Below are positions 21,299 to 57,208 of a DNA stretch of 64,000 bases, piece after piece. Both the position numbers and the translations under genes were made by a program. Position 1 is the first letter of the stretch, and the number at the start of each line of letters is the position of its first letter. The notes under the pieces were generated by a model, which did no database searches, was not told the origin of the DNA, and saw only the letters and a program-made list of their open reading frames with translations. Source of the stretch: Octopus vulgaris (lineage: Eukaryota); the NCBI GenBank assembly GCA_951406725.2, contig OX597814.1, forward strand, positions 53,010,001-53,074,000, written 5' to 3'.

Positions 21299-21520
21299 AA
21301 GTTGCAAAATTATCACAAAAACTGTTACTCAGAGTTTCACGTTCCCATTTTTCGGACAGTTGTGATGAAAACTGAATTAAAAGTATTGAATTTTAATTCG
21401 ATTTTCATCACAACTGTCCAACTAATGGGAATGCGAAACTCTAAATAACAATTTTTGTGATAATTTTGCAGCTTCAATAAAAGCATATTCAATTTTCTTC
21501 ACCTTGTTTTGCACTTATGT
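21299..21520 (+). repeat. Fold-back element (~175-nt palindrome plus 3' tail) with a hammerhead-like motif on each arm
   Basis: 21299-21382 is the inverted complement of 21391-21475. The terminal module and tail are shared with the 22755-23340 element. Inserted after (TA)n. Confidence 0.85.
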
Positions 21521-21555
21521 ACCAAGCTTTGTGTGTGTGTGTATCTATCTATATA

Positions 21556-21659
21556 CAGGATGTACAGAAAGTTTTGCCTGATTCTTATTTTGAAAACCTT
21601 AATAATACAATACAATTTACAATAAAATAAAAATCGGGTGAAACTTTCTGGACACCCTG
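21556..21659. mobile_element. ~104-bp Tc1/mariner-type MITE
   Basis: TIRs caggatgtacagaaagttttgcctgatt / aatcgggtgaaactttctggacaccctg, preceded by TA. Confidence 0.7.
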
Positions 21660-22288
21660 TTTCTGTGTGTGTGTGTACATGCTTGTCTTGACATCATGTG
21701 GTAGTTGTAAATGAGCATCACCATCATAAAGGTGTTGTTTGCTTCTAATCTTCAGTAGAAAACATTTGGCCATGGGGAAATATTAGCTTTCTTGGAAACA
21801 GTTGGGGCTTGGTGACAGGAAAGGCATCTGGCTGTAGAAAATCTACTGCAAAAAAAATTCTATATACAAGGATGGAAAATTGAATGTTAAATGATGATTA
21901 TACATCTATACATATGTACATACAAAGTTCTTTTATAATTATATGTGTGTGAGTATGTAAATAGTGGTGAGAGAAACACAAATTAAAAATTCAAGTCAAA
22001 TTGAAATAGATAAATGCTGGTAATATAGATGATGTACTTGGTAGTAAAGAAACTTTTTGAAATGACTAGAAAGTAGTTTGAAAAGTGTGTGTGTGTGTGT
22101 GTGTGTATGAGAGAGAGAGTAAAGGAATAAATTTAATTTCAGTGAAGGTAGAAGAATTTGTAAGTATTGTCCTATTCTTCTTTGATGTATGCATATCTAG
22201 CAGGAATAAAGATATTTCTTCTGCGGAATTGACAATTAGCTTCCATTTGAAATATATAGCCAAGGGCTGGGAAATAGATAGATCAATA

Positions 22289-22329
<41 letters not shown>

Positions 22330-22668
22330 CTACTGCACTCCGTCAGTTATGGCGACGATGGTTCCAGTTGATCCAATCAACATGCAAGTGGCTGAGCACT
22401 TCACAGACACATGTACCCTTAACGTAGCTCTTGGGGAGATTCAGCGTGACACAGAATGTGACAAGGCTGGCCCTTTGAAATACAGGTACAACAGAAACAG
22501 GAAGAAAGAGTGAGAGAAAGTTGTCGTGAAAGAATACAGCAGGGTTTGCCACCCACCTCCTGCCAGAGCCTCGTGGACCTTTAAGTGTTTTTGCTCAATA
22601 AACACAATGCCCAGTCTGGGAATCAAAACTGCAAGTCTGCTGCCCTAACCACTGAGCCATTTGCACCT

Positions 22669-22722
<54 letters not shown>

Positions 22723-22754
22723 ATGCATATATATATACTTTATGAAGAAGCAGC

Positions 22755-23340
22755 AAAAATATCACAAAAACTGTTACTCAGAGTTTCATGTTCCCGTTTG
22801 TTGGACAGTTTTGTTTAGAGTGGAACAAGAATGAGGTTATAAGCAAACATGTACAATAAGTTTGAATGGATACACATTTGTAAATGGTTTTGTTTCATAT
22901 GTCCTTTCAACTAAAGATCTTTACAATGACCGGTTGCATGCAATGAAAAATTTTGGTATAAAATCATCTTATTATAACCTTAAATCAAAAATATTTTTGA
23001 TTTAAGGTTTTCTTCAATTTTATAATAAGATGATTTTATACCAAAATTTGTTCATTGCATGCAACTGGTGATTGTAAAGACCGTTAGTTGAAAAGACCAA
23101 TGAAACAAAACCATTTTCAAATGTGTATCCATTTAACTAATTGTATAGTTTGCTTATAGCCTTATTTTTGTTCCACTCAAAACAAAAGTGTCTGACGAAT
23201 GGTGATGTGAAACTCTGAATAACAGTTTTTGTGATATTTTTAATGCGTTTTAATACAGCATATTACTCTACCTCTGGTATTTGAGTACTATTTTTTCCCC
23301 CCTTTTTTTTCCCACTTTGTTTCGCGTTTATGTGATTACT
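22755..23340 (+). repeat. Fold-back element (~485-nt palindrome plus 3' tail) with a hammerhead-like motif on each arm
   Basis: 22755-22975 pairs with ~23020-23240. A perfect 34-nt palindrome sits at 22976-23009. CTGACGA at 23192 and GAAA at 23209. Flanked by (CA)n/(TA)n. Confidence 0.9.
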
Positions 23341-23643
23341 CTGTTATACTTACATATTTATATATACCTATATATATATATATATATGCACACACAAACA
23401 TATACATACAAACATATATATATATACACACATATATATATATATACATACATACATATACATAGATACACATACATATACATATATATATATACATACA
23501 TACACATATATATATATATATACACATACATATATATACACATACATATATATATATATATATACATACATACATATACATATATATATACATACATACA
23601 TATACATATATGTATACATACATACATACATACATACATACAT
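23340..23643. repeat. Compound (TA/CA/TACA)n microsatellite; representative of dozens in the window
   Basis: Direct reading. Others include (TA)n 27860-27922, (GA)n(GT)n 45558-45636, (CA)n 15353-15393, 22670-22720 and 63690-63740. Confidence 0.97.
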
Positions 23644-23644
23644 G

Positions 23645-24900
23645 CTCGTAATAGGTACAGGTATAAGAAAATTAATAATTTTTACAAGGAGTTAAACAAA
23701 ACGGGAGGTTCATGGTCTAGAATAAGGGAAGTTGTTTGGTTTGTTCCCCCTTTCTCCCTTAGAGTAAGGAACTTACCAAAAATGTTTTTTAGAATTCTGA
23801 AGGAGAACTTCCCAAGGAATCATAAATACTATAGCATTTGCAACAAGTCAACAATCAAGTTCTCTTACGCTGTAATGCCCAACTTTACTTCGATTATTGC
23901 ATCAATCAATAGAAGCAAGCTTGCTGGGCGGAATAGTTGGAAAAGTTCTTTTGAGGATGACCAAAGAATTGTGAATAATAATTCTGTAACGCCTAATGCC
24001 AATGGTACAAACAGTCTGCCTTTACCGGGTCTATCGAACCCATGTAATAAGGGAAGATTTGATGGAATATAAGAGGAAAACCTGTCTAGAACTGGAGATA
24101 CAAAAAGTAAAGGTAACAATAGAAATAAAACTAGGAAAGGCCCCCCTGAAGAAATGTAATTGTAGAAACCCTGAATTATGTCCTTTAGATGGTTCCTGTC
24201 TAGTTACTAATGTCATATATAAATGTGTAGTCAAGGACGAGGATAAGTTAAATAAATTTTATATAGGTAGCACGGTAGATTTTAATTCTAGATATAGATC
24301 GCATATGAGCTCATTTTCTAATGATAAATATTGTAATTCAACAACACTTGCATCCCATATACATAATTTGAAGAAAAATAATAAGAATTATTATCTAGAA
24401 TGGTCCATTGTCTCTAAAACCCCAAATTTCAAGGGAAATATTAACAAGTGTAAGCTGTGCATAAGGGAATCCCTTACCATCCTTAGATGTTATGGACCGC
24501 ACACTCTGAATAAATTTACTGACGTGATTCCTTTTTGCATCCATAAATTTTCATCTACACTCTTAAAAGTGTATAGGAATAAAATAAGTTGTAGCAAATA
24601 AATAATTTAGCTCTTACAGGGAATTGAAACCACGGAGGTTGAATTTAATTTAATACGCCCATTTAAAAAAAAAAATTTTTTTTACTGCTCTAATTCTTCA
24701 ATAAGTAAGCACACAATATTGTGTTAAGTCTAGTTAAGGAGGTCTTGCCCTTGTACGTGATGATATCTGTCTCTCTATTGTTTCCCCTGACGAAGGAGTT
24801 ATTATTGTGATGCACCCTAATGCTTTAAATACGGTAATGTACCCCTGAAATGGCCCTAGGGAATGTAAATATGGTTTCTTCATTTTTGCTTGGACACTAG
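23645..24900 (+). mobile_element. Penelope-like retroelement, 5'-truncated: RT-thumb/linker, GIY-YIG endonuclease and 3' hammerhead-like motif
   Basis: VVWFVPPFS...[25 protein letters not shown] (ORF ending 24072), then in another frame CNC..CPLDGSC..NVIY..FYIG..SRYRSH..TTLASHI..WSI..CKLC..E (ORF 23996..24601). Embedded in (TA/CA)n. Confidence 0.9.
24782..24863 (+). ncRNA. Degenerate type I minimal hammerhead-like motif in the Penelope 3' region
   Basis: TTCCC-CTGACGA(24787)-AGG...CCT-GAAA(24847)-TGGCCC-TA-GGGAA. Stem I TTCCC/GGGAA is intact; stems II and III are imperfect. Confidence 0.65.
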
Positions 24901-25584
24901 TTTTTAACTATAGGTTTCCCTTATTTGAAATGTAATTTTTAAAAGATTTTATAAATGATGAACTTTTATTTTTACATTATATATTATATATTACTTATCT
25001 ATATGCTTCCTATATATATATATTTTTATATACCTATATATTTATATATTACTTTATACTATATTTTTACGTATTTATTTTCTAGGTGTTGTAATGTTTT
25101 TTTAAAAAATATATATTTCTTAATCGCTAAAGTATTAACATTAACCGTGATGAACTGTATTCACACATTTTTCTCGCACTTTCTTATATGCTTGTACAGA
25201 TGAGTTATGTTTCATTTTCCGTGATATCATAAATGTATATTCTATGATTAAATGTTCGAGATATGAAATGTTATGTGGATGACCTTGCATTTGTTTGTTC
25301 TGTAACCTTGGTTTGATATACATATATATATACATATACATATATATACACATATATATATACATACATATATATATATACACATATACACACATATATA
25401 TACATATATATATATGATTGTTGGGATTGTATTACATGTATATATCACACATATACACACACACATGCACATACACGCACACATTAACATGCCAATCTGA
25501 CAAGTACAAGACACACTCACACAAACATATCTACATGTATGCACACATACTGCACAAACAATAGAAATAAAACACTCTGTTGTG

Positions 25585-26075
25585 TATGCACACCAACAAT
25601 ACACATCCAGCGGATCATGCTAGCTTCATTTCTTTCAAGACGATGCATGTCCTCAGCAGTCATGGACCACATTTCACATGCATCATACAGTCTACCTTTC
25701 ATCCTGAGTGAGAGGCCTTTAGTTGCCAGCAGAGGTAGGAGTTCCTTGAATTTTGCCCAGGCTATTCTTCTTCTAGCCGCTACACTCTCAGAGCAACAAC
25801 CCCCAATACAGATATGGTCGCCTAGGTAGCGGAAGCTATCACCCTGTCATGTGATGGAGTCTGTTTGTACATCTTCAGTGTTTATTGTGCCTGTGCATCT
25901 GCCACACACAAAAACTATTTTCTTGGTTAACTTTCCTTTGATATTGCTGCACTTTTTATGTGTCCATAGCTTACATCGGGTACATTGTATGGAGTTTCTA
26001 CTCATGCTTTTTCTACAGATTGAGCAGGACCATCTACCTGAAGGGAATTGTGGTTTGACATCCATCAGTATCTGG
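25585..26075 (-). mobile_element. RTE-type LINE internal fragment
   Basis: KGRLYDAC...EDMHRLERNEASMIRWMC and a PHD-like Cys cluster (CSIC..IQCTRCKLWTHKKC..FVCGRC), as seen inserted in some RTE ORFs. Related piece at 62415-62665. Confidence 0.8.
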
Positions 26076-27856
26076 TGAACATGATCCCCATTGAAATTAA
26101 TGCATGTAAGATTTCACAGCTCTTGCATCACTCCTTCATAGTCAACCTATGAACTTTTCAGCCCACCCTTGTATATATGTATAAGTATGTGTGTGTGTGT
26201 GTGTGTGTGTGTATCTGTATGTTTGTGTTTTGTTTGTCTTCCACCACCACTGCTTGACAACTGTTGTCGGCTTGTTCATGTTCATGTAACCTAGCTTATT
26301 CTAGTCTCTTTTTCCAAACTGCTAAGTTTGGCAAAAGAGACTAGAATAAGTACAAAACTTAAAATTAAGTTCTGGGATTGATCTGTTTGACTAATCTCTT
26401 CAAGATATTGCTCCAGCATTGCCTCAGTCCAATGATTGAAAGAAGTAAAGGATAAAAGATATATCTGTATCTATCTATCTCTCTACCTATAATCTTGACA
26501 CACACACACACGCACACACACTATCTTGAAAGTAGATAAGGAAATGTACTGAAATCTTTGTGATACACTTTATGACAGAAATTGAATGTTCCTATAATGA
26601 AATGCATCCACATTTTTAACGTTACTCTTGACTTTGTAATTAAAGATTTTTTTATGATTTCAGGATTTCATAACTAGATGTTCTCAGCAATGCTGTCATA
26701 ATTTCACAATTTTAAAGAAATTTATGTACAGTTATTATTTCTTCAGGGAATGTAGATTCCTTATTCATCTGCTGTTGTTCTAATGTTCTATTACTACATT
26801 GATATATATATATATATATATATATATAGGCAAAGTTAAAATTCAGTTGATGTCTCTGTAAGATCTTTCAGCAATATTTGTCTGTAGCTGGGAAATCAAA
26901 TTTATTCTCAATGCAGTATCATTCATTTTATTAAGGTTATCTCTGTTTGTCCAATGTAATTCTCTTCATATCCTGAACAAGTTATTGTATTAATTAGGTT
27001 TTTGCATATACAGATAAATCATTTTTTTTTAAAAACGTTTTTAACTGGAATTCTGAACTTTTGGACAAGTTGAGACATATCTTACAGTTGGGTCACCCAC
27101 ACATTTTTTACTATTGATTCTGTTGTTAAATATAATTTAGCATTTGATAACATTATTTGTAATAATTGTGGTTATTTTTACTTTTTATAGGGGAGGTGTG
27201 TGGGTTAGTGGTTAGGGTGTTGCACTCATGATCATAATATTGTGGTTTTGATTCCTGGACTGAGTGTTGTGTTGTATTCTTGAGCAAAACACTTTATTTC
27301 ACATTACTCCAGTCCAATCAGCCAGCAAAAATGAGTAATTCTGCAATGGACGGGTGTCTTGTCCAGCAGGGTGGAATATATATGCCACAGAATATGAGAA
27401 ACTGGCCTTATCTATGGTTTAGGAAGGACCTTTGGTCATTTTTATTTACTTTTTATATTTGTATGCATTTGTAGAATCTGTATTTTCTTAGTGATCCTCG
27501 ATGCATTATAATTTCCAAATATCTCTTAACTGAATTTGCATAGACTGAGGTTACTGTGGTCCCCATAAATGTTCCAGATCAAAATTTGCAATATTTAACA
27601 TCAGGCATGGAGAATAAATTTTAATCCTTCAATTATTAATTTTTTAAACATTCAGACAATTCTTCAACAACAACATTTATGATATCACGACATTATAACA
27701 ATACCCTTAAGTACAAAGTCATGATTACCTTTAAAAATGTTAAACCAGTTGATTACATGAATGTTCCATTTGTATCCCAAAATTTTATCATAATGATTTC
27801 AGGACATTTTCTTCTCTCTTTTCAACGTAATTTAATTTGTTAAGAATTAGTTGACT

Positions 27857-27928
<72 letters not shown>

Positions 27929-33465: not shown

Positions 33466-34830
33466 TCACAGATAATGGATTTGTTGAGTGTGATGGATAA
33501 GAGTAAAAGGCGGCGAGCTGGCAGAAACGTTAGCACGCCGGGCGAAATGCGTAACCGTATTTCGTCTGCTGTTACGTTCTGAGTTCAAATTCCGCCGAGG
33601 TTGACTTTGCCTTTCATCCTTTCGGGGTCGATTAAATAAGTACCAGTTACGCACTGGGGTCGATATAATCGACATAATCCGTTTGTCTGTCCTTGTTTGT
33701 CCCTTCTGTGTGTAGCCCCTTGTGGGTAGTAAAGAAATAGGCCATACACTGTTGGTACACAAAAGCCATTGGCACCTGAGGAAAGCTGCCTCCAGTTTCA
33801 TACGAGTTGTTGGCCTTGGGACCACCTGGTTCAGCTGTCTCTGAATTTCATCCCTCGTGTTCCAATTCAGGCTGAGAGCCGGCCATGGCATGGTTCTGGT
33901 GTTGTGCTGATGCAGGAAGTCCATAGTGACCCTGGCCATGTGGGAGGGAGCATTGTCCTGCTGCAACTCGTGGCTATGGTGACACGCAAAGAAGGGCATG
34001 GTGTGAGGTCTTAGGATCTGGTCAATGTAGTGCTGTGCTGTGATGCCATTCCCTCTGCCTACACCAACATTTTGGAACACACAGGGCCCAATTCTCTGAT
34101 TCAGGCCTATAGCACCCCAAACTATGATGCTTTGGCCACCCCATGGGTCTCTTTTCATGACACATGCATCTCTGTAACATTCATCACTCTGCCATCCAAG
34201 ATGGAAATGCAGTACTGGCTCTCATCAGAGAAGACTATCGACCTCTATTGTTGTAGTTGTGCCTGAAAGTGGCGGGCAGTGAGGACAGGCCCTCAAGCAG
34301 GATGACAGCAAAGCAGGTTGTTGGCGGCCAGTTGATGTACTGTTGTTGTTGCTGATGGGTCGCTGACCAGTGCCAATAGTCTTGCGAGCTGTCATGCTGG
34401 CCAGTCGGAAGCAATCATGGAGGTGTTGTAGGTGGATGAAGTGGTCCGGAGTGGATGTGGTGGTCTGGGGGTGCTTTCTGAGGGCATGATCTGCAGTGTT
34501 GTTGGTGTTGTATCACTGTTGCAGGCAATGGTGCTGACATGGATATTGTAAGCTTTCGCAACAACCAGGGCATGCTGCCCTGCTTGTAATCAGCCAATAG
34601 CTTGTTCTCTCTGTGCTGCTGACAATCAGGTCATACCTGATGCGTCCAAAGTACGAATGCCAGAAACACTGTTCAAGTTGATTTTTATACCTGTAATCTC
34701 CTCGAGATGCACATGCATTTTGGTTTTCATAACAATTATTTGTGACTGCCTCCCATGGCATTCTACACAGCTGTGTTTTGGCATCTTGTTTCAGGGAAAG
34801 TTGAAAGGTTACTTGCAAAATGTGCCTGAG
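33466..34830 (-). mobile_element. Tc1-like transposase pseudogene interrupted by a SINE
   Basis: FSDES-like motif near 34220; GGQSIIVWGAI, YIDQIL.P, QQDNAPSH.A and PWPALS in ORF 33466..34158. The 3' part of that ORF is SINE read-through. Confidence 0.85.
33509..33740 (+). mobile_element. Young tRNA-derived SINE (second octopus family, MetaSINE-like core)
   Basis: A box ctggcagaaacg, B box gagttcaaattcc, core gcctttcatcctttcggggtcgat, CpGs intact. Many older copies at 4520-5340(-), 9770-9950, 16710-16800, 18310-18720, 58212-58420, 60245-60365(-). Confidence 0.85.
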
Positions 34831-34860
34831 CCATAAACCAACATGTCTTGGAATATTTAC

Positions 34861-35157
34861 CAAAATCACAAAGTATGGAAAGCCGGCGGTGCCAAAATCA
34901 CGAAGTATGGAAAGGCGGCGGTGCCAAAATCATGAAGTATGGAAAGGCGGCGGTGCCAAAATCACGAAGTATGGAAAGCCGGCGGTGCCAAAATCACGAA
35001 GTATGGAAAGCCGGCGGTGCCAAAATCACGAAGTATGGAAAGCCGGCGGTGCCAAAATCACAAAGTATGGAAAGCCGGCGGTGCCAAAATCACGAAGTAT
35101 GGAAAGCCGGCGGTGCCAAAATCACAAAGTATGGAAAGCCGGCGGTGCCAAAATCAC
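34861..35157. repeat. 32-bp minisatellite, 9 full units plus a partial unit (caaaatcacgaagtatggaaagccggcggtgc)
   Basis: Units start at 34861, 34893, 34925, 34957, 34989, 35021, 35053, 35085, 35117 and 35149, with only 0-2 substitutions per unit. Confidence 0.97.
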
Positions 35158-36152
35158 ATTCAGATTTCTTTGTCAAATGTAAACCTTATTTATTCACATT
35201 GTTTTGAAGTAATCATGCATTTTCTCATAGCTTCACAATTTCTATGATGTGGTTGTTTATTTTTAGAATGACCTTGTAGGGTAGGTATGAGACATTGGAT
35301 CTGCTCAGTTTTAACATAAAACCAGGAGAATATCTGGACCAAAAATGGCTGGATTAAATGCTAGAGTTAAGCCCACTTTCACTATCAAAGCAGGGATTAG
35401 CCTAGGAGTCCCATGACTAAATGTTTTTGGGGACTATCTATCTTTTATCCTTTTCTTGTTTCAGTCATTGGACTGTGGTCATCCTGGGGCTCTCTCTTTA
35501 AGGGTTTATTACATATACATTAGCAATAAGTAGATATCAGTTATTAGTGGTCAGTTACATAGTGACCTGGTAAACTTGAAATGCCAGTAGTGATGGTCAT
35601 TATAATAGAGGACAGCTGATCTGTTGATGTCAGTGTTGGATGGTCAAGAAATATAATGACCAGCTGAATGGTAAAAATACAATTTTCATTCTGATATTTT
35701 GTTCATTATATTGTCTATTTTGCAGTGGTAGTAAAGGCCAGACGAATAAATATTACTAAAGCATTGCTTTACAGTAAGATGCCCGTCCTGTCATTAAAGA
35801 TACTTACTTCACATGCTTGTAACTGAAACATTTTTCTTTCTTTTTCCATCTCTTCTGCAATCTGCAACAAAGAAAAAAAGGAATTCTTCTGATTTTCATT
35901 TATGCATTACACTTTACCATTTCTCACTTTCTTTCTCCGTAATTGTGTGTGCAATTACACACACACACGCACAAAACATGTATGTATGTATGAATGGATG
36001 AATGAATGAGTGAAAGAATGAATAAAATGACAATTGCCTTAGTGTTTAGCATGTCTGCACAATTTATGGTGTGTCTGGATTATGATTCCAGTAGGCACTG
36101 AAAAACATTTTTGTCCAACCCATGCAAGCATGGAACATGATTATATACATAC

Positions 36153-36209
<57 letters not shown>

Positions 36210-41100: not shown

Positions 41101-41427
41101 GAATTACGGAGATGTGCTTGCATAGCAAGTGAACTGATCTGAGATCGGGTGCTGAAACAAAAACAGTTGCAGCATGGAAGGTGTTTATAAGCCATTTAAA
41201 ACACACACAAAAAAAACGTTAAATTGTCAAAATATTTTCATCACTTTGAAACCGCAACCTGTTCTCTGACAAAATTTAGTGCTGCATCTTGAAATTTTGC
41301 CAGCGGGCTGGTTGCAGTTTCAAAGCGATGAAAATATTTTGACAAATTAAATTTAAATGTTGAAGTGAATCTAACAGTTTTTGTGTGTTTTTAGATGGCT
41401 TATAAACACTTTCCATGCTGCAATTGT
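41101..41427 (-). repeat. Fold-back element (~265-nt palindrome plus tail on the left) with a variant hammerhead-like motif on each arm
   Basis: 41163-41276 is the inverted complement of 41292-41427, with a ~25-nt gap on the left arm. Each arm has GAAA-ATAT-TT closed by TTGTCA/TGACAA. Confidence 0.85.
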
Positions 41428-43909
41428 ATTTTTATTTGATTTTCCTAATTCAAAAAACTTCAATTAATGATTAGACACAGATATTTTCAAATATGTAGAA
41501 TCAGTCTCATTTGCTAATTTATCACTAATATCATGAAATATATAAAAATGAAAAATAAGAATGCTCCTCACCTGAAAGAACAAACAAACAAACAAGATTA
41601 ATGATGAAGTTAGTTACAACCAATAAATAGTAATTGCATGTTGTGATAGAAATTTAATTAGAGGTGAATGTTCTTGTTAGGCAATAAAGTAAGTTTTCAT
41701 CAATTAGAGAAAATTAAGCTTAAAATCTTTAACTGAGACAAATAATTACAAGTAGAGAGATTAATTTAAAGCTCTTTTGAATCAAGACAGTTATGGGACC
41801 AATGGTATGTGATAGCTCTTAATTAGTGACTTACATTTCTTTTTATTTGATTTTTTTTAGTAAGAAAGGAAGGACTGTATACAAAATATGTCCACCTAAA
41901 CAAGGAGATTAAAATAATTATGGCTCACAATAACAATAACAATAGTATGAACATGATAAACAACACCATCTGAAATGAAAAACACAAAAAAAAAATCACA
42001 TGAGATCATGTGGTGCTCTGGTGTATTTTAAATTTAGAATGAAATATCTTTGATCTTAAGTGTAAACAGCAACAATATAATTAACAAAAACAATAAAGAC
42101 CACTGTCACATGAACAATATCTTCACCAAAGCCCAAACCACCAACACCGCTACCCTCAAACTATCAGCTTTTAAATGACCAATAAGTGACAGCAATAATA
42201 GTATCAGCTTGGTTGCAATGTCTGTAGTTACATATGTTGTATGCCAACACAGTGGGTGTGTGTCTGTATGTGAGCAGAGCGTGAAGTTTATATGGATCGA
42301 GTTAGAAGCAGAAGGGGAAAAGTACCAATCATACAGTTCTTCTTTCCACCTCACTCCTTCACTTTTTCAGCTTCTCATATCCATTCTTACACACATAAGA
42401 ATTTGACAGCTCTTACTATTACAATTCAAGTTGTTTGGAAAGAAGTCATTAAGTGGTCATAATGCAAATAGGAAATTAAAAGGATTATACTGCATATTAA
42501 ACTTGATGTTTTAAAAAGGCTTGATGTGAAAGAAAACAATCAACCACCTTGCCAAAATATTAAAGTTTGCAATGTGTACAATGAGAATAATACATGACAA
42601 TAAAAAGAAAATTAAGTCAAGTGCTCAAGAAGTTACTCCTTCAACTGCTTAGACCTTATTTTTTCATAGATTTAATGTTTACATGAATCAAAAAATATAT
42701 GGCCAGCCTCTTTCCATGACTTTATAAGTTTTCCACAAGCTGAAAGTCTACATCAAATTCAGAAAGGTATTGTGACACTTGCAAATGATGTAGGGTGTCA
42801 TAGAGAATGATGTGGTTGACATCCTGCTGTCCTATAGAGAAAGTTTATTTATCAAGGAGTTGATGTTAGTTATTTGAATAAAAGCAAGCAGGTAATACAG
42901 ATGTGAGAATATAGAAATTCTAACAACTACACTTAAGTTGACAGGAAAGAATATTGCTAAAGTGTTGGAAGGTCTGAAAGTTTTTATTGATGACATCCCT
43001 AATTGTGAAGGTAACATAAAAATTACAAAACAAGTTATAGAGAGTTCAGTTCCTGCACTGAACTTTCATCATCATTGTTTAATATGCTCCTTCCATGATG
43101 GCATGGGTTGGATAATGACAGGAGCTAGCCAGGTAGAAGACTGCACCATAATTCTGTGTCTGTTTTGGTATGGTTTTTACGGCTGGATGCCCTTCATAAC
43201 ACCTACCACTCTGCAGGGTGGGCTAGTCTATTTTATGTAGCACTTGCACAGGCGAGGTCAGTTTTGGCATGATTTTCACAGCTGGATGCCCTTCCAAATA
43301 CCAACCCCTTTACAGTGTGGACTGGGTGCTTTTTAAGTGGCACCTGCATTGGCAAAGTCACCAAGTATGTTTGCAAGACTAGGAATTTTTGAGAGAGGAG
43401 TGGGTATTGGAAGAAATGATTATGTGTCAAATGTTAGAGTGTGAAAGAGAGAGAGAAATAGATGCCTTGCTGTAGAGGAGGTACATGGTTACCCAGCCAG
43501 AGAGAGGGAGAGAAAGCGAGTGAAAGTTAACAGGAATAAGGGCAGAAACAGATGTACTGAAGAGGAGGGATATGGTTACCTAGAGAGAGAGGGAGGTTAA
43601 CAAGAAACCTGCTGCAAAGGAGATACATGGTTACCTAGCCAGAGGTAGGAGCAAAAGAAGGAGGGAGAGAGAGTGACCAAGAATGAGGGCAGAAATAGGT
43701 TTGTTTCTGTAGAGGAGATACATGAAAAGGGAAGATCAAGGGAAAGAGAAAGTAGGAGAATGTAAGAATAGGAGAGGGATGATAGTAAGTGCCAGGGAAT
43801 GGTGATCAGGGCATAGATGGGCTGGTAGATTCAGGAAGAAAGAGATGAATGGTGGCAGGGTATTGCCAAGATATATAGAGGGGGAGGGGACACGGGAAGA
43901 GATAATGCA

Positions 43910-45180
43910 CCATAAACAATACAGTTCTATATTTGAGAGATGAGGAATTATGTAATTATTTGCATTATTTACATTTGACGGATATTTGTCCTCATCTTGT
44001 TTGTTGTTAACACAACGTTTTGGCTGATGTACTCTCCAGCCTTCATCAAGTGTCCTAAGGTATTTTTCTGATGTTATTATTTCCATGCATGATCAGCTGA
44101 TTTATTAATATCTCCTTGTGTCACAGCTTTGCAATGATCCAGGACATCCATATACCAGAAATATGGATCCAGGACATCTGTATACTGCAAGCCAACCTTC
44201 ACTGGATGATATCTCAACTTCAATTCCCACCATCCATACAGTGTAAAGAGAAGGATTGCTCAGTGCCTAAAACATTGAGCAAAGAATATAAGTAGTGATC
44301 CTGATACACACCACGAAGAATTGATCGAGCTAAGTAACAATCTGTTAAGCAACAACTACCCCCAAAACATACTATCCACTCCAATTATGAAGAAAAGAGA
44401 GGATGAAACTCATAAACTGACCACAGTCTGTCTACCCTATGTGAAAGGCCTCTCCAAAAAGATACAAAAGATATGTGGCTTATATGACATCAGGACAGTA
44501 TTCAAAAGTAATACAACACTTTGCAAATATCTCTTTTGAGTAAAACCACAATTAGAAGAGAATATGACCAAAGACTGCATGTACTCCATCCTATGCAGCT
44601 GTGGTTATACAAGTTATACAAAGGCAAAACATGTTGCCCCCTCAGAATAAGGGTAGAGGAACATTGTAAAGCTGTGACATGAGGAGATACTGATAAATCT
44701 AATATAACTGATTATGTATGGAAAAACGGAGACCATCTCCCTCTGTGGGATGTAGTTAAAAATAATAGACTGAGAATACCACTGGAAAATATGAAGACTA
44801 AAAGAGGCAGCACATATGCTAGGTCATAATAATCTCCTAAGCAGACCTGGTGCAGATATGAGTAGCATATGGGAACTGGTATTAAGGAAGGACAGGAAAA
44901 TATTAGATTTACAAGCCCTAAAATTCACCCTATAATTACCCATTGACATGTGGCGTGGTGGTTAAGAGTGCGGGCTACTAACCCCAAGATTCCGAGTTCG
45001 ATTCCAGGCAGTGACCTTAATAATAATAATAATGATACGAAGAAGAAGATTGGAGAAATACCTTAGGAATAAGAACCCAGGTCTCACCTGATGAATGCTG
45101 GAGAGTACAGCAGCCAAAATGTTGTGTTAACAACAAAGATGAGGACAAATATCCGTCAAATGTAAATAATGTAAATAATA
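43910..45180 (+). mobile_element. Penelope-like retroelement remnant with inverted pseudo-LTRs
   Basis: YLNFNSHHPYSVKR..., NNYPQN..., VCLPYVKGLSKKIQKI...IRTVFKSNTTL..., then a decayed GIY-YIG (CMYSILCSCG...RIRVEEH). 43955-44070 is an inverted copy of 45055-45180, and both carry a decayed hammerhead. Confidence 0.88.
44949..45035 (+). mobile_element. Short tRNA-derived SINE-like unit with (AAT)n tail inside the Penelope remnant
   Basis: A box tggcgtggtgg, B box gagttcgattcc, anticodon-arm-like cgggctactaacccc, followed by taataataat. No convincing acceptor stem, so not called a tRNA gene. Confidence 0.65.
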
Positions 45181-45553: not shown

Positions 45554-45614
<61 letters not shown>

Positions 45615-48768: not shown

Positions 48769-48839
48769 TATTATTCATTACAGATATACTTCTTTCTACC
48801 TTTTAAAATTTTTCTTGTGTTTCTCATAATAGAAAAAGC

Positions 48840-48875
<36 letters not shown>

Positions 48876-48910
48876 TATGGAAAACGGACGCTAAACGATG
48901 ATGATGATGA

Positions 48911-48946
<36 letters not shown>

Positions 48947-49902
48947 TTACTTTGTTTTCTGTGTATTGCTTCCTGAAGAGGATTCTTGCCAACTCTGTTT
49001 GCGACTGAGGATGAATAAAACTAGCTTGAAACTGAGTTGGTCTCATGATCCTGTTGTCTGCTAGAGGGTGGTAGGGGTTTACTTTCCTGCTTGCAATATA
49101 CACCGGGTGAGGCTGTACCTATAACCAGCTGGTGGAAGATCTGCCTGGTATTAAACAGTAGTAATATTGAATAGCCATATTAATGTGGCAATTCTTCTCT
49201 TGCTTTTCTTTCTGGCTAGGTAACCTAGTATCTCCTTTACTTCAGCACACATGTTTCTGTCCTCTCTCTTGTACTTCTCTCTCCCCCTCTCTTTCTTCTT
49301 CTCCCTGTCTTTCTCTCTCTCTCTCTTGCTGGCTAACCATGTACTTCTATAGCAAGATACCTGTTTTTGCTCCTATTTCTTTCTCACTCTCTGACCTTTT
49401 ACTATCTGACATAAGATCTCTTCCTCCAATGCCCCCCCACCAATCTCAAAATACCATGTCTTGCAAGTTACTTGGTGACCCTCCCAGTGTTGGTGCCATG
49501 TAAAAAGCATTCAGTCCACATTGTGAAGTGGTTGGCATTTGGAAGGGCATCCAGCTGTAAAAATCATGTCAAAACTAACCTTGCCTGTGCTGGTGCCACG
49601 TAAAAAGGTCTTAGTCTACACTGCAGAATGGTTGGTGTAAGGAAGGGCATTCAATGGTAAAAACCTTGCCAAAACAGACACAATAGCCTGGGGTAGTCTT
49701 CTACCTGGCTGGTTCCTGTCCTACTCATGCATACATGGAAGTTGAATGTTAAATGATGATGTTGATATATATATATATCTCCAGATGTAGAGACCAAGCC
49801 AGAACAGACTGGAGCCTAGTGCAGCTCTCTGGCTTATCAGTTCCAGTTAAACCATCCAACCCATTACCAGCATGAATAACAGATGCTAAATGATGATGTT
49901 GA

Positions 49903-49941
<39 letters not shown>

Positions 49942-50375
49942 TGTCTCTAGCTGCTTGAAAACCAGTGTTGTTTGTTTATGTGTCAATAACTTGACAGTTC
50001 AGCAAAAGATCCTATTAGAATAAGTACCAGACTTTAAAAAAACAAGTACTGGGGTTGATTTGTTTAACTAAAGCCCTTCAAGGCAGTGACTCTGTATGGC
50101 TGCGGTCCTGCAGGCCAAGATGTAGTTGTGTCCTTAAAATACAGCTTTGTAATCATGTGGCTTTAGGTTCATTACACTCAATACTGTTATTAAAAAAAAT
50201 TAATCAACATATTAAATTAGAATTGTTGAATATATGACATTTTGGTACTTTTTTCATGTTCTGTTTTTGAAACATTATATAGGAAAAGCATCCTGCCCTA
50301 GAAAATTTGCCTCAATAAAAACTGTCTGTCCCACACATACATGGAAAAAAGGGTGTTGAAACAATGATGATGTGA

Positions 50376-50413
<38 letters not shown>

Positions 50414-50984
50414 CACACACACTATTTTAATGTATAGTTTTCCATGCTTGCATTGGGTCAAATAGAATTTGTTGAGGCAAACTTTTTATGGTGTGCTGTC
50501 CTTCTTGTTGTCAGCCCTCAACTGTTTCCAATTATGGTTATTTTTCTTTTTGACCAGAAGGATAGAAATGAATGACACTGCTTCTTAGTGAACGGAGTAA
50601 TAGTAATGTTTCTCTTTAAATGGCTCTCATCATTTTACATTTTTGCTTATAGTACTGAAACCCAGTTTAGCTTTGTCAAGTCATATGTATAATAAAATAG
50701 CTATAGATCTATCTTAAAATAGTGTAAACTCTTTATGTTGTGGCTGCATTTATGCTTCAATTAATTTTCTTTATTATCATGATACTGGAGTATCTTGAGA
50801 TTTTGTGTGGTATTGACCTGTTCAAATTTCAAAATTTAATTCATGATATGATGAAATTTTAGTAGAGATTTTAATGTAAATATGAGCACTTTTGTAAGCT
50901 TGGTCTCAAGTGGATTAGCTTTAAAATAATTAGTGGACAACTGTATACAATAGGCTCATTATCATTATATAAAAACAGGCTAGG

Positions 50985-51725
50985 CAAAGTTCAGAGAGGA
51001 GCTAACTTTGTTTACAAACTAAGGGCCTCTCCCACAGAGTGAAAGACAGATTGTTTGATGCCTGTGTATGTACTGCTGTTACATGGCAGTGAAACATAGG
51101 CTTTGACTAAAGAGGACTTGCGAAAGCTTGAAAGAAGTGAAGCTAGCAAGCTTTGCTGGATGGCTAATGTCAGTGTGCATGCATGACAGAGTGTAAATGA
51201 TTTAAGAGGAAAACTGGGCATAAGACACATCAGATGTTGTGTGCAAGAGAGAAGATTGCACTGGTTTGGTCATGTGATGTGTATAGATGAAGACAGCTGC
51301 GTAAAGAAGTGCCAAGCTCTAATTGTAGAGGGTATCTGAGGAAGACATGGGACAAAGTGGTGAGAAAGGTTGGGCCTCACTGAGGAAATGACAAGGGACC
51401 AGGAGATGTGGTGATTTGCTGTACTTGATAAGGCACGTCAAGCTAAATAAAATCATCGTCTTCCATACATACAAGCTTATCTTTTCAGGTGCTGATGCTG
51501 CATAAAAAACAACCGTGTTGCTGCTGTGTAAACATACTCGTGCCAGTGGCATGTGAAAAGCACCCAACACACTCTGTTAAGTGGTCAGCATTAGGAAGGG
51601 CATCCAGCTGTAGAAACCATGCCACAACAAACAAATGGAGTTTGGACAGCTCCCAGCTGACCAACTCCATGTCAAACCCTCCAGCTCAAGCCAGCATGGA
51701 AAGCAGACATTAAATGACGACGATG
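50985..51725 (+). mobile_element. RTE-type LINE 3' fragment
   Basis: KGLSHRVKDRLFDACV...LLHGSET*A...RKLERSEAS...ERRLHWFGHVM, ending in the family 3' tail. Short 3'-end-only copies recur at ~7760-8190, 36250-36542, 49450-49900, 53050-53230 and 54085-54330. Confidence 0.85.
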
Positions 51726-52659
51726 TCATCTAGATGTGCTGTAATATCTGTTTCTTTAACATTCTCCATACATTAAAGTAAACAATTCAATAGAAAGCAG
51801 ATGTACTCTTTTAGTCAACCAATGACTGAAAAATATTCACACATTATTCTTCAGTATAGTCTGTACACAATAGAGGAACTTGTTCAAAGTGTCAACCTGT
51901 TTGAGAAAGCAATGAAATCTTCAAATTAAGACACTACCATTTTGAAAAAGAACGGTCACATCAATAATATATATTGAATAATATTGTTCTGGACACACTA
52001 TACACAAAAGAAGACTGGAAGACTGCTTAAACCGAGAGTTCTTTTCATCATGAGTTTGTTTAATCAAGGCTGATATAGGTTATGCGACAATAAGAACAAT
52101 AATAACGCTTCTTGCATTGGTTTAGAACTTGTCATATTTTTAGAATGCTGAATTAGAGAGGGGAGATAACTCTCGTTGGTTTAATTATTTACCCTGCTGT
52201 CTTAGAATATATTTCAGTACTGAATCACATTGAATATCGTCCTGCGGTACATATTTCTTTGTCTTTACCGATAGAGTTGTCAGATAAATAACTGAAACAC
52301 AACACAAAATCAAGGATGGGCTTGGATATTACAACTTTTTAACTGAGAGATTGGCACTCTATCACGTAAAATCAATGAAATGCATCTCTATGTATGTACC
52401 TGTCTGTCTGTCTCACACATAAACACACACACACACGTTACGTAATAAAAAATAAACCTTGTTACAAAAGCGTCAGAGTGTACATGGAAGCATGATGTTA
52501 AAAAAAATGATTCTTTTTCATTTGATTAAGTTAGCAGGGAGAAGAAGTATATAAATTGTTGACAAAAAAGTAGTTTTGCTGACCATTCATGTTTATGACT
52601 CCATGAATCTTAATGAAGATAAAGATCTCTTATAAAAACTCTATTCATTATAATTTCAG

Positions 52660-52796
52660 ACATACAAAGACTCATCTCGGAAAGAACAGTTTGTGACCAG
52701 ATTTTTACTGCATGAGATTCTGAATCAGTTTACTGCTGTTCAACGAGCAATGGAGAATGCTTCTGATGCTTTAGACGAACAAGCTAGAGAGCAAAA
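52660..52796 (+). CDS. NECAB: NECAB-like exon: TYKDSSRKEQFVTRFLLHEILNQFTAVQRAMENASDALDEQAREQ
   Basis: tttcag acceptor, AA|gtaagt donor, 137 nt. Contains the NECAB hallmark EQFVTRFLL. Confidence 0.95.
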
Positions 52797-55398
52797 GTAA
52801 GTTATTAAATTAACTTCTAGTCTGTGTTTTACTTTCAGGCATGGGAGCAAAACTTCCAATATTGCTTTTCAGTTTTTGCTTGGAGTTTAGGAGTTAAACT
52901 CTTTTAAATTTCACATAACTAGATTAGATCATGGGTTTAGGTTCTATTAAAATCTTGTGTTTCTTTAGGAAGAGTACTACTTGATTTGTTACATTAAAAC
53001 ATATAGAAGCGCAATGGCAGAGGGAATTTTCTATTGAACTACAGAAGGCACCTGTACTGGTGACATGTAAATAACACCCAGTACACTCTGTTAAATGGTT
53101 GGCATTATGAAGGGCATTCAGCCACAGAAATCAAGTCAAAATAGATGACTGGAGCCTGGTGCTCCAATTCAGACTATCTAACCCATACCAGCATTGAAAA
53201 TGGACGTTAAATGATAATGCTGATGATGATTCACACAAATGCACTATGCATTTTATTTTTCATTTGTACAGTATATTTTATTCTATGTATCGCAGACTGG
53301 ATCTGGTGGACTGTGTGGAAGAATCATTAATGGTTCAATGGAAGAGAAGGTGACTGCAGAAATGCATTGTGGAGTGCAGAGACTAAGATGAGGCAAGTAA
53401 GACATCTAGGTCATCTGTTGCATCTGTCTCCATCCTCTGTCATCTTGATCTGGTCTTCCCACAGGATTGAAGATGGTCATGGATGAGAGAGTGAGATTAA
53501 CAGGCTACATCTCATCTTCACTTGACAGGCTACATCTCATCTTTACTCTTAACAAAGTCACTGCATAAGTCATCTGTCTTCTCTATATGGCTAGATGGTC
53601 CTTGTTGCTCTGATGGATAAACATGGATCTTAGTTCAGATGCTTGTTAATCCATAGTTACTGGGAATAGATACCAGATAATCTGAAAATGTAACCTGTGA
53701 TAGACTGGCAACCTAACAAAGGGGAAGTAAATCTCTCAGCTTCTTAATGCTATGAAACTGGAGTTAAAGACATTGATTCTTAAAAGTTCTCTAGGATTAG
53801 AGACGAGGACATACACATGAACACACACACACGTTTGCATACACACATGCACATACACCCATGTGCACATTTCATCAAAGATCGTTTTTTTTTTTAGGCA
53901 TTCCCTAAAACATTTTGAGTAAAGTGAACATTTCTCAATCTTCAAAGTGGAAAAAAATCATGTCTACTGCACTTAAAATTGTTTCATATAATCTACAAAA
54001 ATATATTTTGCAAGACAATTTATAATGGATCAATTAATATAAAGAAATAAAAAAATTCAAACATAATGATGTTGAAGTATTAAGACTGGGTTCACTTGTG
54101 GTGGTGCCACATATAAGTGCCCACGTGCCACATAAAAGTGCCCATGTGGTGCCATGTAAAAGCACCCAACACACTTAGTAAAGTGGTTGGTGTTAGGGAG
54201 GGCATGTAGCCATAGAAACCATGCTAAATCAGACTGGAGTCTGATGCAGCTCCCCTGTTTGCTAGCTCTGGTCAAACTGTCCAACCCATGCCAGCATTAA
54301 CAATGGATGTTATATGATGATGATGACTGATGTAAGAACAGCACACAAACAAAATAAAAGGAGTTAAAAACTTGAAGAATTTCATTCAAAACATTTTTCC
54401 ATGTCAGGTTTGAGAAAAATAATGCAACTTCATTTTTGATATAACCTCAAAATTAAAACTTTTTAATCTGAGTGCAACTTGGATGCTGTCTTCAGAGTTT
54501 AATGGATGTCTATATGACCCCCAACTTAGTTGATAGGGTTTTTTGTTTGTCTTGAAAGTTACTTGATGACTTCACTTGTGCTGGTGCCACAAAAAGGCAC
54601 CCAGTCCACTTTGTAAAGTGGTTGGTATTAGGAAGAGCATCCAGCTTTAGAAACCATGTTAAAGCAGATATTGGAGCCCTATGCAGTCCTCTGGCTCATT
54701 GAATTTTATCAAACCATCCAACACATTCCAGCATGGAAAATGGTAAATGATGACGATGAAATAAAGGGTTGAAATTATTAGTGAAAAAAAAAAAGACAAC
54801 TATTTCTCTCTGGTTTCGTAATCTGTTTGGAGATGGTTTCTATGGCTGAATACACTTCCTAATGCCAACCATTTTACAGAGTGTACTAGGTGCTTTTTAC
54901 GTAGCACCATCTCCAGTGCTTTTTATGTGACACCAGCACTTGTGCTTCTTACATGGCACTATCACCAGTGCTTTTTACTTGGCACCAGAACCAACAGGAT
55001 CACGAAGTACCTTGTGGGACAAGTAACCCTTGACTGAGAGAGTGGAGAGTAGTATTGAGGGCATGTGGCTTTGGGTCAGTTGAAAGATTTAAGGTGAAGA
55101 GGGGATAGATATAGGTGTCTTGCTATAAGGTAGATACATGGATACCCAGTTGGAAAGCAAAGAGAAGTGAGTTGGAGAGTAAGATATAGGGAGTAAGGAT
55201 GAGAAATATGATGGCAGGGTTGTGTTGGGACATGTCCTCAAGGGACATTGAGGATGGTGAGAATAGGTGTGGTGATATAGAGGCTTGGACCGGATGAGTG
55301 GGCACGATGAGGTGACTGTAGCAAATAATGGAGAAAAATATAGGATAAACCTTGGCCTAATGACCCGTAAGCTTCAGATAGATTTTAACACACACACA

Positions 55399-56150
55399 CA
55401 GGGTGTTCAGACAAAATGTGACAGTTTGCATAAAAGAAAAAGAAAATACAATATCTCATCCAAAAATAAAAGTATTTAAAAAAATAAAAAAATATCAACT
55501 TGATTATGGCTAGGCGATAATAGTTTACTCTCCTCATCTTCTACCACTGCTCCAGACCCTGGCGCACATGTTTCCCACCTTGTCCATGGGATGATCTTTG
55601 AACACCTTGTTCTTGGCCACCAGCTCAGCCTCAGTGGTGCAGGCTGAGTGGGTGGTATCTTTCTCGACTGCATCCCAAACATAATAATCCATGGGATTAG
55701 GAAGCCAGAAATTGGGGCTGGTAAAGTCGTAGATATTCTCTGATAACCATTTCTGACTCTTTCTGGAGGTATGGCAAGGAGCCAAATTCTGATGCCTCAC
55801 ATGTGGCCTTCCAGCAGTAGCCATCTTCATCCAGGGTTTGACCACAGTCTCCAGCAGTTTCACATATCTATCTGAATTGAGCCTAATGATGTGGGGTGTC
55901 ATGACATCACCATCACTGGAGACACCCAGAGACCATCACAGTTTCAGGGAACTTGGTTTCCATAATGTCCATGTCATGTCTTACAGCCTTTACAGTGTTC
56001 ATAACGCATTGAACAGCAGTCATGATGTTGGCATTTTGATACCTGGTGCAAATCATCATGATATGGGTAACTCTTTTCTTATATTCAGATGGTACCCAGT
56101 CCTCCTTACCAGGTAACTTTTTTCAACAACAGCTTTAATCTTTATGCTCT
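55399..56150 (-). mobile_element. Tc1/mariner (maT/DD37D-like) transposase remnant
   Basis: YVKLLETVVKPW...QNLAPCHTSRKSQKWL...FW.PNPMDYYVW in ORF 55534..55902. Terminus cagggtgttcagacaaaatg at 55399. Confidence 0.75.
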
Positions 56151-56759
56151 CCAATACCATTATACTGTTAACCAATATATCAAGCTGTTCTTGAAAAAGG
56201 AGTTATCAAAAACCTCATTACATTTAGCTTGCCCCCCTGCCCCCACACACACAAATAAATGTATATGAGTTTCATTTGTAAGGCATTGGTCAGCTTGAGG
56301 CTATGCCATAAAACATGTTCAAAGTGTCATGCAGTGGAAGGGAACTTGCAAACATGATTATAAAATAATCAACTCCTTATCCACACAGCCATATCTGTGG
56401 CTTATGACTATCCTCACCTAACTAAAGGAAAATTCAATAAAAAAATTATTCCACTCAATGGTTTCTGTCTAACTCTAACAGTTTCCATAGTGATGGAAAA
56501 GAAGTTGCTTTAGCTGACGAAATTCAGAGGGGAATCTATAAAATGTCAAAACTCCATATGTACAAAGGAAAATCATTGGAATAAGATACTTGAGATAGTT
56601 GACAATTCTGAAGCACTTATTTATTATATGATATAATGATGTCAGACTGAACTGTATGGTAATTGTGTACTAGGCTGTGGAATACTGAGAAGTTGTAAAT
56701 GGTAAATTACTAATAGGGTATGAAGTATATTGAGGTATAAGTCATATACTATTTAGACT

Positions 56760-56793
<34 letters not shown>

Positions 56794-56816
56794 AATATTG
56801 TGTATTCTATTTTCAG

Positions 56817-56959
56817 TGAAGATATTGTTCCAGTCATGATGGACACTCCTTCAAAGGTAGTAAATGCAGCTATTGTCCCTGGCCGTGTAGCCAGAAGAGC
56901 AAGGCGCCAGATGTCAATGCCAAATCCCACATCTAGCAGCAATGTAACTGAGACAGAAT
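56817..56959 (+). CDS. NECAB: NECAB-like exon: (N)EDIVPVMMDTPSKVVNAAIVPGRVARRARRQMSMPNPTSSSNVTETE
   Basis: ttttcag acceptor, T|gtaagc donor, 143 nt, phases fit (2 in, 1 out). PGRVARRARRQ resembles the basic NECAB linker (WPGKRSSRRVQR). Lies within ORF 56800..56994. Confidence 0.85.
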
Positions 56960-56984
56960 GTAAGCCACAACTTCTTGCTTCTGT

Positions 56985-57208
56985 TAGTCATTGAACTATA
57001 AGATTGTCATATTTCGTTTTTGGATTTAGTTTGCAAGATTCTTTATATCAGTTCGTGTGTTGAAGCATATTCTGTTGTGTCTGAGGAGAGTCATTCTCTT
57101 TTTGTACCTTATTATTTAACACACTCACCGGTAAAATTTCCACTTATTTTGTCTTTTTATTTTCCTAAAATTTTCTTTGCGTCTTGCAACCTTTTCAATA
57201 GTCTTGAC
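56985..57208 (-). repeat. Interspersed-repeat-like segment beginning (on - strand) with a U3-A8 variant hammerhead-like motif
   Basis: - strand 57201->57165 reads CTA-TTGAAAA-G-GTTGC-aagac-GCAAA-GAAA-AT-TT-TAG. Single copy in the window, so repeat status is inferred. Confidence 0.45.

What the first reader, a model, noticed from the sequence alone, without database searches (positions are those of the whole stretch)
21299..57208. Five unrelated repeat families each carry a minimal hammerhead-like motif, with apparent covariation of the 3-8 core pair
Seen: ten motifs with the order stem I - 7-nt core - stem II hairpin - GAAA (AAAA in the two 44-45 kb copies) - very short, usually palindromic stem III - UH - stem I'. 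Cores read CTGACGA (24787, 23192), CTGATGA/TTGATGA (45088; 44049 on -), CCGAAAA/CCAACAA/CCAACTA (21.3-22.8 kb arms), GAGAACA/GCGGGCT (41.2-41.3 kb arms) and TTGAAAA (57198 on -). Established: C3 and G8 form a Watson-Crick tertiary pair in the active hammerhead, and Penelope-like elements encode minimal hammerheads with palindromic stem III (Cervera and de la Pena 2014). Inference: these families use C3-G8, G3-C8 and U3-A8 versions of the pair plus a U4C version. That would be a diversified repertoire of non-canonical ribozymes in high-copy cephalopod retroelements, invisible to CUGANGA-based searches. Every copy here is mutated, so the argument concerns family consensuses, not these copies.
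Basis: partly seen in the sequence, partly recalled or inferred. Interest (0 to 1): 0.8.

Follow-up and report, generated by a model that had tools for sequence, protein, structure and literature searches.

The report
Swapped-core hammerheads in Penelope retroelement tails
Five abundant jumping-gene families of the Penelope type each carry a small hammerhead-shaped RNA motif, predicted to cut its own RNA, and the two paired letters at its heart differ between families but always still match (C-G, U-A or G-C); two of these variants have precedent, the G-C swap appears undescribed in nature, and cutting is untested.

Summary
The ten motifs are decayed copies from five repeat families. Each family lies 3' of a Penelope-like (PLE) RT/GIY-YIG reading frame. 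Family majority cores: C3-G8 (B, C), C3-G8 with U4C (A), G3-C8 (D), U3-A8 (E). In 1.2 Mb of arbitrary genome, a minimal-hammerhead descriptor with positions 3 and 8 free gave 34 hits, 34 of 34 Watson-Crick (shuffles: 1.4 hits on average; reversed: 0); 17 of 34 are not CUGANGA. Genome-wide, 6,395 matches have G3 (97 of 100 listed have C8) and 3,475 have U3 (95 of 100 listed have A8). Corrections: the families are not unrelated (all PLEs; D and E proteins 46-47% identical); 23192 is a CpG-decayed family A copy; TTGATGA and AAAA are copy mutations. PLE hammerheads and U3-A8 are published (Cervera 2014), U4C is known from a viroid, and C3G/G8C is a known laboratory rescue. I found no report of natural G3-C8, but one key paper was not held. 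Cleavage is untested. This scan noted a G3-C8 family and U3-A8 families before, on other DNA of this genome. Verdict: new variant of a known kind.

The parts
21320..21361 (-). Family A hammerhead-like motif, copy core CCGAAAA (family majority CCGACGA: C3-G8, U4C); left arm of a fold-back insertion
21412..21453 (+). Family A motif, copy core CCAACTA (decayed); right arm of the same fold-back insertion
   Evidence: (inverted repeat I18)
22769..22810 (-). Family A motif, copy core CCAACAA (two CpG transitions); left arm of the 22726-23255 fold-back insertion
23186..23227 (+). Family A motif, copy core CTGACGA (C4-to-T at a CpG makes it look canonical); right arm
23644..24601 (+). 5'-truncated PLE reading frame of family B: RT-thumb/linker-like part (23644-24069, by eye; no Pfam hit) and Cys-linker plus GIY-YIG endonuclease (23990-24601)
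   Evidence: (GIY-YIG E 0.0013, under the curated cut-off)
24782..24863 (+). Family B motif, canonical core CTGACGA, 53-nt stem II region, palindromic stem III with one copy mutation; predicted cut after 24858
41223..41273 (-). Family D motif, copy core GAGAACA (family majority GTGAACA: G3-C8); left arm of a fold-back insertion of about 41104-41435
41296..41345 (+). Family D motif, heavily decayed core GCGGGCT; right arm
44009..44054 (-). Family C motif in the inverted 5' copy, core TTGATGA and AAAA (family majority CTGATGA, GAAA)
44282..44917 (+). Broken PLE reading-frame fragment of family C (stops and frameshifts; endonuclease-region-like by eye, no Pfam hit for its first 85 aa); shared with other family C loci
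44945..45022 (+). tRNA-like stretch upstream of the family C motif (16 of 30 family C loci have it on the same strand within 200 nt)
   Evidence: ARAGORN calls no tRNA gene
45083..45128 (+). Family C motif, core CTGATGA, G12 lost by CpG decay
57165..57202 (-). Family E motif, intact core TTGAAAA (U3-A8), one change in stem II, 3-bp stem I; within a truncated element of about 57009-57459

Best explanation
The ten motifs are decayed copies of minimal type I hammerhead motifs that sit in the 3' pseudo-LTRs of five Penelope-like retrotransposon families, whose core pair 3-8 is C-G, U-A or G-C depending on the family, and which likely cut the element's RNA slowly as dimers with help from the element's protein. 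Shown: motif anatomy, family majorities, position downstream of PLE reading frames, fold-back arrangement of short copies, Watson-Crick complementarity of 3-8 across families. Inferred: (1) the pair is kept by selection on the master elements for the active-state fold, since 3-8 pairing belongs to the catalytic conformation; (2) two motifs in a tandem transcript pair their palindromic stems III into a dimer; (3) cleavage after U16.1-H17 trims the precursor RNA; (4) protein assistance and a low required rate relax the core enough to fix G3-C8, U3-A8 and U4C in master elements. Window copies are likely inactive.
For: PLE frames upstream: A (RT motif LYRDD, Cys linker, GIY-YIG-like end), B, C, D (GIY-YIG E 2.6e-5; 14 longer single-ORF RT+GIY-YIG relatives at 42-54% identity), E. 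Samples anchored outside the motif: A n=28, C3 23, C4 23, G5 22, A6 25, G8 22, A9 26; D n=30, G3 29, U4 29, G5 29, A6 28, C8 28, A9 28. Census of 120 arbitrary 10-kb stretches: 34 of 34 strict hits Watson-Crick (21 C-G, 9 U-A, 4 G-C; 12 clusters: 8, 3, 1), shuffles 3 of 7 in total. Genome-wide D/E frame: G3 6,395, U3 3,475, A3 or C3 389, reversed-pattern controls 0; 97 of 100 listed G3 matches have C8, 95 of 100 listed U3 matches have A8 (read by eye). D versus E also change stem II pairs compensatorily (C-G against U-A) and stem I differs with pairing kept. Relatives from marine metagenome contigs carry C3-G8 (L364, L365) or U3-A8 (L362) at the same place behind the ORF. In contigs of four runs from four coded organisms no change at 8% or more lies in the D core while loop II and flanks vary. 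C3G/G8C partly rescues cleavage of a PLE hammerhead, with protein help (PMC11167929, passages).
Against: No cleavage was tested. 0 of 10 window copies are intact. Cervera 2014 found no cleavage of a monomer and low cleavage of dimers. In the one PLE studied in vitro, hammerhead mutants did not reduce insertion and no RNA-seq reads began or ended at the cut site. Family E has only a 3-bp stem I and family A a 3-bp stem II. About half of the 100 listed A3/C3 matches are E-type copies with C3 opposite A8; the few I read share no clear diagnostic changes and some are junctions, but a small mismatched subfamily is not excluded. The relaxed descriptor gave 8 of 67 non-Watson-Crick hits. C3-G8 clusters share the pair by descent, so only 4 of 12 clusters are informative, and some U3-A8 clusters may share one origin; tree backbone support is 56-61%. 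RNAcofold did not give the clean dimeric hammerhead as lowest-energy fold for the copies tried. B, C and E per-position counts come from searches whose query held the motif.
Confidence: 0.7

Rival explanations
1. The motifs are hammerhead-derived folds kept for a non-catalytic role (protein binding, RNA dimerisation or template positioning); variant cores cleave little or not at all.
For: Hammerhead mutants did not affect insertion in vitro and no reads marked the cut site in the anole PLE; low in vitro activity of minimal PLE hammerheads; U4C lowers activity in vitro; single relatives show U4G (L365) or G12A (L368/L369).
Against: G5, A6, A9, G12-A14, A15.1-U16.1 and a non-G H17 are all kept and 3-8 stays complementary through three different pairs, which fits selection on the catalytic conformation; the G3-C8 double mutant cleaves in vitro.
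Confidence: 0.25
2. The variant cores are neutral accidents fixed in a few master elements; complementarity at 3-8 is coincidence or shared descent.
For: Few independent events: 4 informative clusters in the census; D and E are sisters; copies inherit a master's letters, so thousands of copies count as one event.
Against: All 4 non-C3 clusters are complementary and no strict cluster is mismatched; G3-C8 needs two changes from either other pair; a second, divergent G3-C8 family with another N7, loop II and stem III exists (8 matches; 5 of 8 have G3 and 7 of 8 have C8); U3-A8 recurs in a non-octopus relative and in Schistosoma.
Confidence: 0.04
3. The motifs are chance patterns read into AT-rich fold-back repeats (MITE-like elements), not hammerheads.
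For: Window copies are degenerate; Rfam finds none; families A and D look like small palindromic elements in the window.
Against: Enrichment over shuffles and reversed sequence; position behind PLE ORFs in all five families; inverted 5'-truncated copies are a described PLE trait (PMC8557442).
Confidence: 0.01

Closest known systems
Minimal type I hammerheads (min-HHR) in pLTRs of metazoan Penelope-like elements (Cervera and de la Pena 2014, PMC4209133)
   Same: Type I topology, short or absent palindromic stem III, extra nucleotide after A9 (A is the exception; C, D, E have it), position 3' of the RT-EN frame, opposite-strand pairs of motifs. Its S. mansoni families 3 and 4 have U3-A8 (about 1,300 hits), family 4 with the same UUGAAAA core as family E.
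   Different: No G3-C8 or U4C core among the 56 representatives listed in its Figure S3, no cephalopod among them. Family B has a much longer stem II region (53 nt).
Natural core variants of hammerheads (Perreault et al. 2011, PMC3088659)
   Same: U3-A8 covariation seen in nature; U4C known from a viroid, weaker in vitro but viable.
   Different: Rare single examples there; here U4C is the majority state of at least two multi-copy families (A, and another with 4 of 6 copies). G3-C8 is not named in the section read; its Figure 5 could not be seen.
Engineered C3G/G8C hammerheads (PLE PAc, Frangieh et al. 2024, PMC11167929; review PMC8495972)
   Same: Same swapped pair as family D; partial rescue of cleavage.
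   Different: A laboratory mutant there; here the natural state of about 6,000 genomic matches.
Neptune/Nematis and Penelope/Poseidon clades of endonuclease-bearing PLEs (Craig et al. 2021, PMC8557442)
   Same: C-terminal GIY-YIG; A, B, D, E have the Cys linker described for Neptune and Nematis; inverted truncated 5' copies; microsatellite flanks.
   Different: Clade names were not tested against reference sequences; that C looks Poseidon-like is recalled, not from a call.

Membership tests
Minimal type I hammerhead of PLEs | Core G5, A6, A9, G12-A13-A14, A15.1-U16.1, H17 in family majority | tested here: met
Minimal type I hammerhead of PLEs | Watson-Crick pair between positions 3 and 8 | tested here: met
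   C-G (A, B, C), G-C (D), U-A (E)
Minimal type I hammerhead of PLEs | Literal CUGANGA core | tested here: not met
   met by B and C only; A has C4, D has G3-C8, E has U3-A8; U3-A8 is an accepted variant
Minimal type I hammerhead of PLEs | Stems I and II, palindromic stem III | tested here: met
   stem I 3-7 bp, stem II 3-7 bp, palindromes of 4-9 nt; compensatory changes between D, E and their sister families
Minimal type I hammerhead of PLEs | Location in the repeat 3' of a PLE ORF | tested here: met
Hammerhead ribozyme | Site-specific self-cleavage after H17 | not testable with these tools
   needs a cleavage assay or raw reads with end capture
Penelope-like element (C-terminal endonuclease type) | One ORF with PLE-type RT followed by GIY-YIG endonuclease | tested here: met
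   A: RT motifs and endonuclease in consecutive frames; D, E: RT end, linker, GIY-YIG and full-length relatives; B: GIY-YIG and linker; C: fragment only. Pfam RVT_1 was weak or absent
Penelope-like element (C-terminal endonuclease type) | 5'-truncated copies with inverted pLTR copy | tested here: met
   fold-back pairs in the window and in L211, L213, L214, L215
Neptune, Nematis or Poseidon clade | Phylogenetic placement with named reference elements | not tested
   no named references were at hand; the tree holds unnamed relatives only
Non-LTR retrozyme (non-coding tandem repeat) | Small non-coding tandem monomers with one hammerhead each | tested here: not met
   all five families are linked to coding PLE frames; a separate U3-A8 family with 362-nt spacing in L263 may be one

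The most novel reading that the evidence does not exclude
Penelope-like elements of this genome have repeatedly rewired the catalytic core of their hammerheads, fixing G3-C8 (in two families, thousands of copies), U3-A8 and U4C in active master elements; these are working, protein-assisted slow ribozymes, natural G3-C8 is new, and about half of the genome's intact minimal hammerheads are invisible to standard searches, so animal hammerhead counts are substantially too low.
Probability: 0.35. Interest if true: 0.62.

Novelty: new variant of a known kind. Interest (0 to 1): 0.45.

Why it matters
Whether PLE hammerheads matter is open: they cleave poorly in vitro and were dispensable in the one reconstituted PLE. 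Natural covariation of the 3-8 pair through three Watson-Crick states in one PLE lineage argues that selection acts on the active-state fold, and offers matched natural variants (D, E, and C3-G8 relatives) for a direct test. It also shows that CUGANGA descriptors miss half of the intact motifs in this genome. The class of element and two of the three variants are already known, which caps the interest.

Tried and rejected
Rfam scan: no hammerhead family at E<=10; not informative for minimal variants. Sequencing runs: no RNA holder listed; the four runs laid were contigs, which cannot show ends, strand or level. Pfam gave no RT hit for the A, E, B or C fragments (0 of 6 relevant) and one weak RVT_1 among 5 full-length relatives. 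A first metagenome scan with the D protein found 0 of 69 candidates; genome contigs 0 of 22. Of 11 related metagenome loci, 3 gave a descriptor hit behind the ORF (L362, L364, L365), L368/L369 and L370 were read by eye only, and the rest had no tail or no motif seen. No A3-U8 family appeared in the 34 strict hits or the 100 listed A3/C3 matches. Freeing position 4 to purines added 3 weak single hits. Energy folding of monomers gave stems I and II for C, D, E but not for the B window copy; the family A slice missed the 3' half and is void. The order of 3-8 changes cannot be read from the tree. Rejected: family C as U3 variant; 23192 as a canonical family; MITE reading. No covariance model or R-scape-type test was run; count of changes is by family.

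Full report
Observation. The ten motifs are present as described. Rfam finds no hammerhead at E<=10. None of the ten copies passes a strict minimal-hammerhead descriptor, and only 24787 passes a relaxed one, so the case rests on the families.

Families. I fetched 30 loci per family (best-scoring of 278-3,948 candidates) and, to avoid bias towards the query, second samples anchored outside the motif for A and D (943 matches, first 30 taken). A (21.3, 21.4, 22.8, 23.19 kb): majority core CCGACGA, 3-bp stem II with a GGAA loop, stem III palindrome with a central U, 5-6-bp stem I; C4 in 23 of 28, T in 3, gap in 2. The window cores differ mostly by CpG transitions, and 23192 is an A copy whose C4 decayed to T. 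B (24787): canonical core, 53-nt stem II region. C (44049, 45088): canonical core; T3 in 3 of 29 and A12 in 9 of 29 other copies. D (41.2, 41.3 kb): GTGAACA, G3 in 29 and C8 in 28 of 30, 5-bp stem II, 7-bp stem I. E (57198): TTGAAAA, T3 and A8 in 29 of 29 (motif in the query), 5-bp stem II, 3-bp stem I.

All five are Penelope-like elements. B lies 186 nt behind a Cys-linker/GIY-YIG frame in the window. C flanks a broken frame with an inverted copy on the left. Longer copies of A, D and E carry RT end, Cys linker and GIY-YIG upstream of the motif. The D protein has 14 longer relatives at 42-54% identity with one RT+GIY-YIG frame; Pfam's RT model scores them weakly or not at all. Short fold-back copies match the inverted, 5'-truncated arrangement described for PLEs (PMC8557442, passages). 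The families are therefore related: D and E proteins are 46-47% identical, A and B 28%; D and E group at 92% ultrafast bootstrap, with a weak backbone (rows with under 100 aligned residues left out, rooted on L368).

Covariation. In 120 arbitrary 10-kb stretches a descriptor with 3 and 8 free gave 34 strict hits, all Watson-Crick: 21 C-G, 9 U-A, 4 G-C, in 12 clusters (8, 3, 1). Reversed sequence gave 0; five shuffles gave 7 hits in all, 3 Watson-Crick. Relaxed: 59 of 67 against a shuffle mean of 3.6 of 14. With the core wholly free, 12 of 77 hits in the first 80 stretches had NYGANNA, against none in controls. 17 of 34 strict hits are not CUGANGA. Genome-wide, the frame shared by D and E has G3 in 6,395, U3 in 3,475 and A3 or C3 in 389 matches, controls 0; of the first 100 listed, 97 G3 matches have C8 and 95 U3 matches have A8 (counted by eye). 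Exceptions look like single-copy changes, though C3 opposite A8 in E-type copies is frequent enough that a small mismatched subfamily is not excluded. A divergent second G3-C8 family exists (8 matches). D, E and their sister families keep the core, stem II ends and GAAA while loop II and flanks change, with compensatory changes in stems I and II. Three related elements from marine metagenomes carry C3-G8 (L364; L365, with G4) or U3-A8 (L362) behind the ORF. Contigs of four runs from four coded organisms show no change at 8% or more in the D core. The number of independent events is small (4 informative clusters plus outside relatives); copies are not events.

Mechanism. Most likely (0.7): the motif works as in other PLEs, two copies in a tandem transcript pairing their palindromes into a dimer that cuts after U16.1-H17, slowly and with protein help; selection on master elements keeps the active-state 3-8 pair but not its identity. 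Anatomy, context and covariation are shown; dimerisation, cleavage and its role are inferred from PMC4209133 (main text parts 1-2 of 4, supplement file 2 parts 1-2 of 3; file 1 not searchable) and PMC11167929 (passages). Against: low activity of such motifs in vitro, no effect of hammerhead mutants on insertion and no reads at the cut site in the anole element. D has U17; an engineered G3-C8 variant was reported as less active with C17 than with G17 (PMC3884650, passages, data not shown there), so U17 may suit G3 (inference).

What is known. PLE minimal hammerheads and U3-A8, including the UUGAAAA core, are in Cervera 2014. Natural U3-A8 and viroid U4C are in PMC3088659 (passages and section 8). 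C3G/G8C is a laboratory rescue. Searches gave no report of natural G3-C8 or of cephalopod PLE hammerheads. Lunse et al. 2017, with many thousands of PLE variants, is not held (seen only as a citation); figures are not held either, so natural G3-C8 may be in print. Also seen: PMC6765202, PMC6155905, PMC8495972, PMC7229834 (passages), bioRxiv 10.64898/2026.07.22.740005 (part 1 of 5). Earlier notes of this scan describe a G3-C8 PLE family and U3-A8 families in this genome and G3-C8 candidates in other genomes; I read them after my own family analysis and did not count them as support.

Verdict. Real feature; new variant of a known kind. The added value is the controlled, genome-level evidence that the 3-8 pair covaries within one PLE lineage, with a natural G3-C8 state. 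Interest 0.45.

Noticed in passing
window 20261-20364 (-): U6 snRNA-like copy, 49.8 bits, above Rfam's gathering score of 44; its 3' end abuts a SINE-like repeat; probably a retropseudogene.
   Followed up: no
window 44945-45022 (+): tRNA-like stretch 65-170 nt upstream of the family C motif in 16 of 30 loci, and 8 of 18 such stretches in 1.2 Mb are followed by the motif: family C tails may act as tRNA-headed, SINE-like hammerhead transcripts.
   Followed up: partly
L263 (- strand offsets 971 and 1333); L258, L266: Another U3-A8 family with two motifs 362 nt apart, retrozyme-like; a look-alike family (L296) has C3-G8 with nearly the same stem II.
   Followed up: partly
L226, L246, L268, L291: A second U4C family (CCGACGA in 4 of 6 strict hits) unrelated in stem sequence to family A.
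   Followed up: partly
L348-L355: Old, divergent G3-C8 family with C at position 7 and a 4-nt palindrome; no ORF found in the 3-kb loci.
   Followed up: partly
L365:1682, L368/L369 tail: PLE relatives from marine metagenomes with U4G (L365) and, by eye, G12A (L368/L369) hammerhead cores; single sequences.
   Followed up: no
window 24794-24846; L218, L286, L300: Several C3-G8 families have stem II regions of 50-80 nt, far longer than the published minimal motifs.
   Followed up: no
window 34796-35189: Tandem array of 32-nt units, about 12 copies.
   Followed up: no
window 33466-34221 (-), 6629-6931 (-), 55476-55935 (-), 20501-20968 (-), 25517-25846 (-): Reading-frame fragments that look by eye like Tc1/mariner transposases (first three), a CENP-B/Tigger-type protein and an RTE-type reverse transcriptase (labels recalled, not tested).
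   Followed up: no
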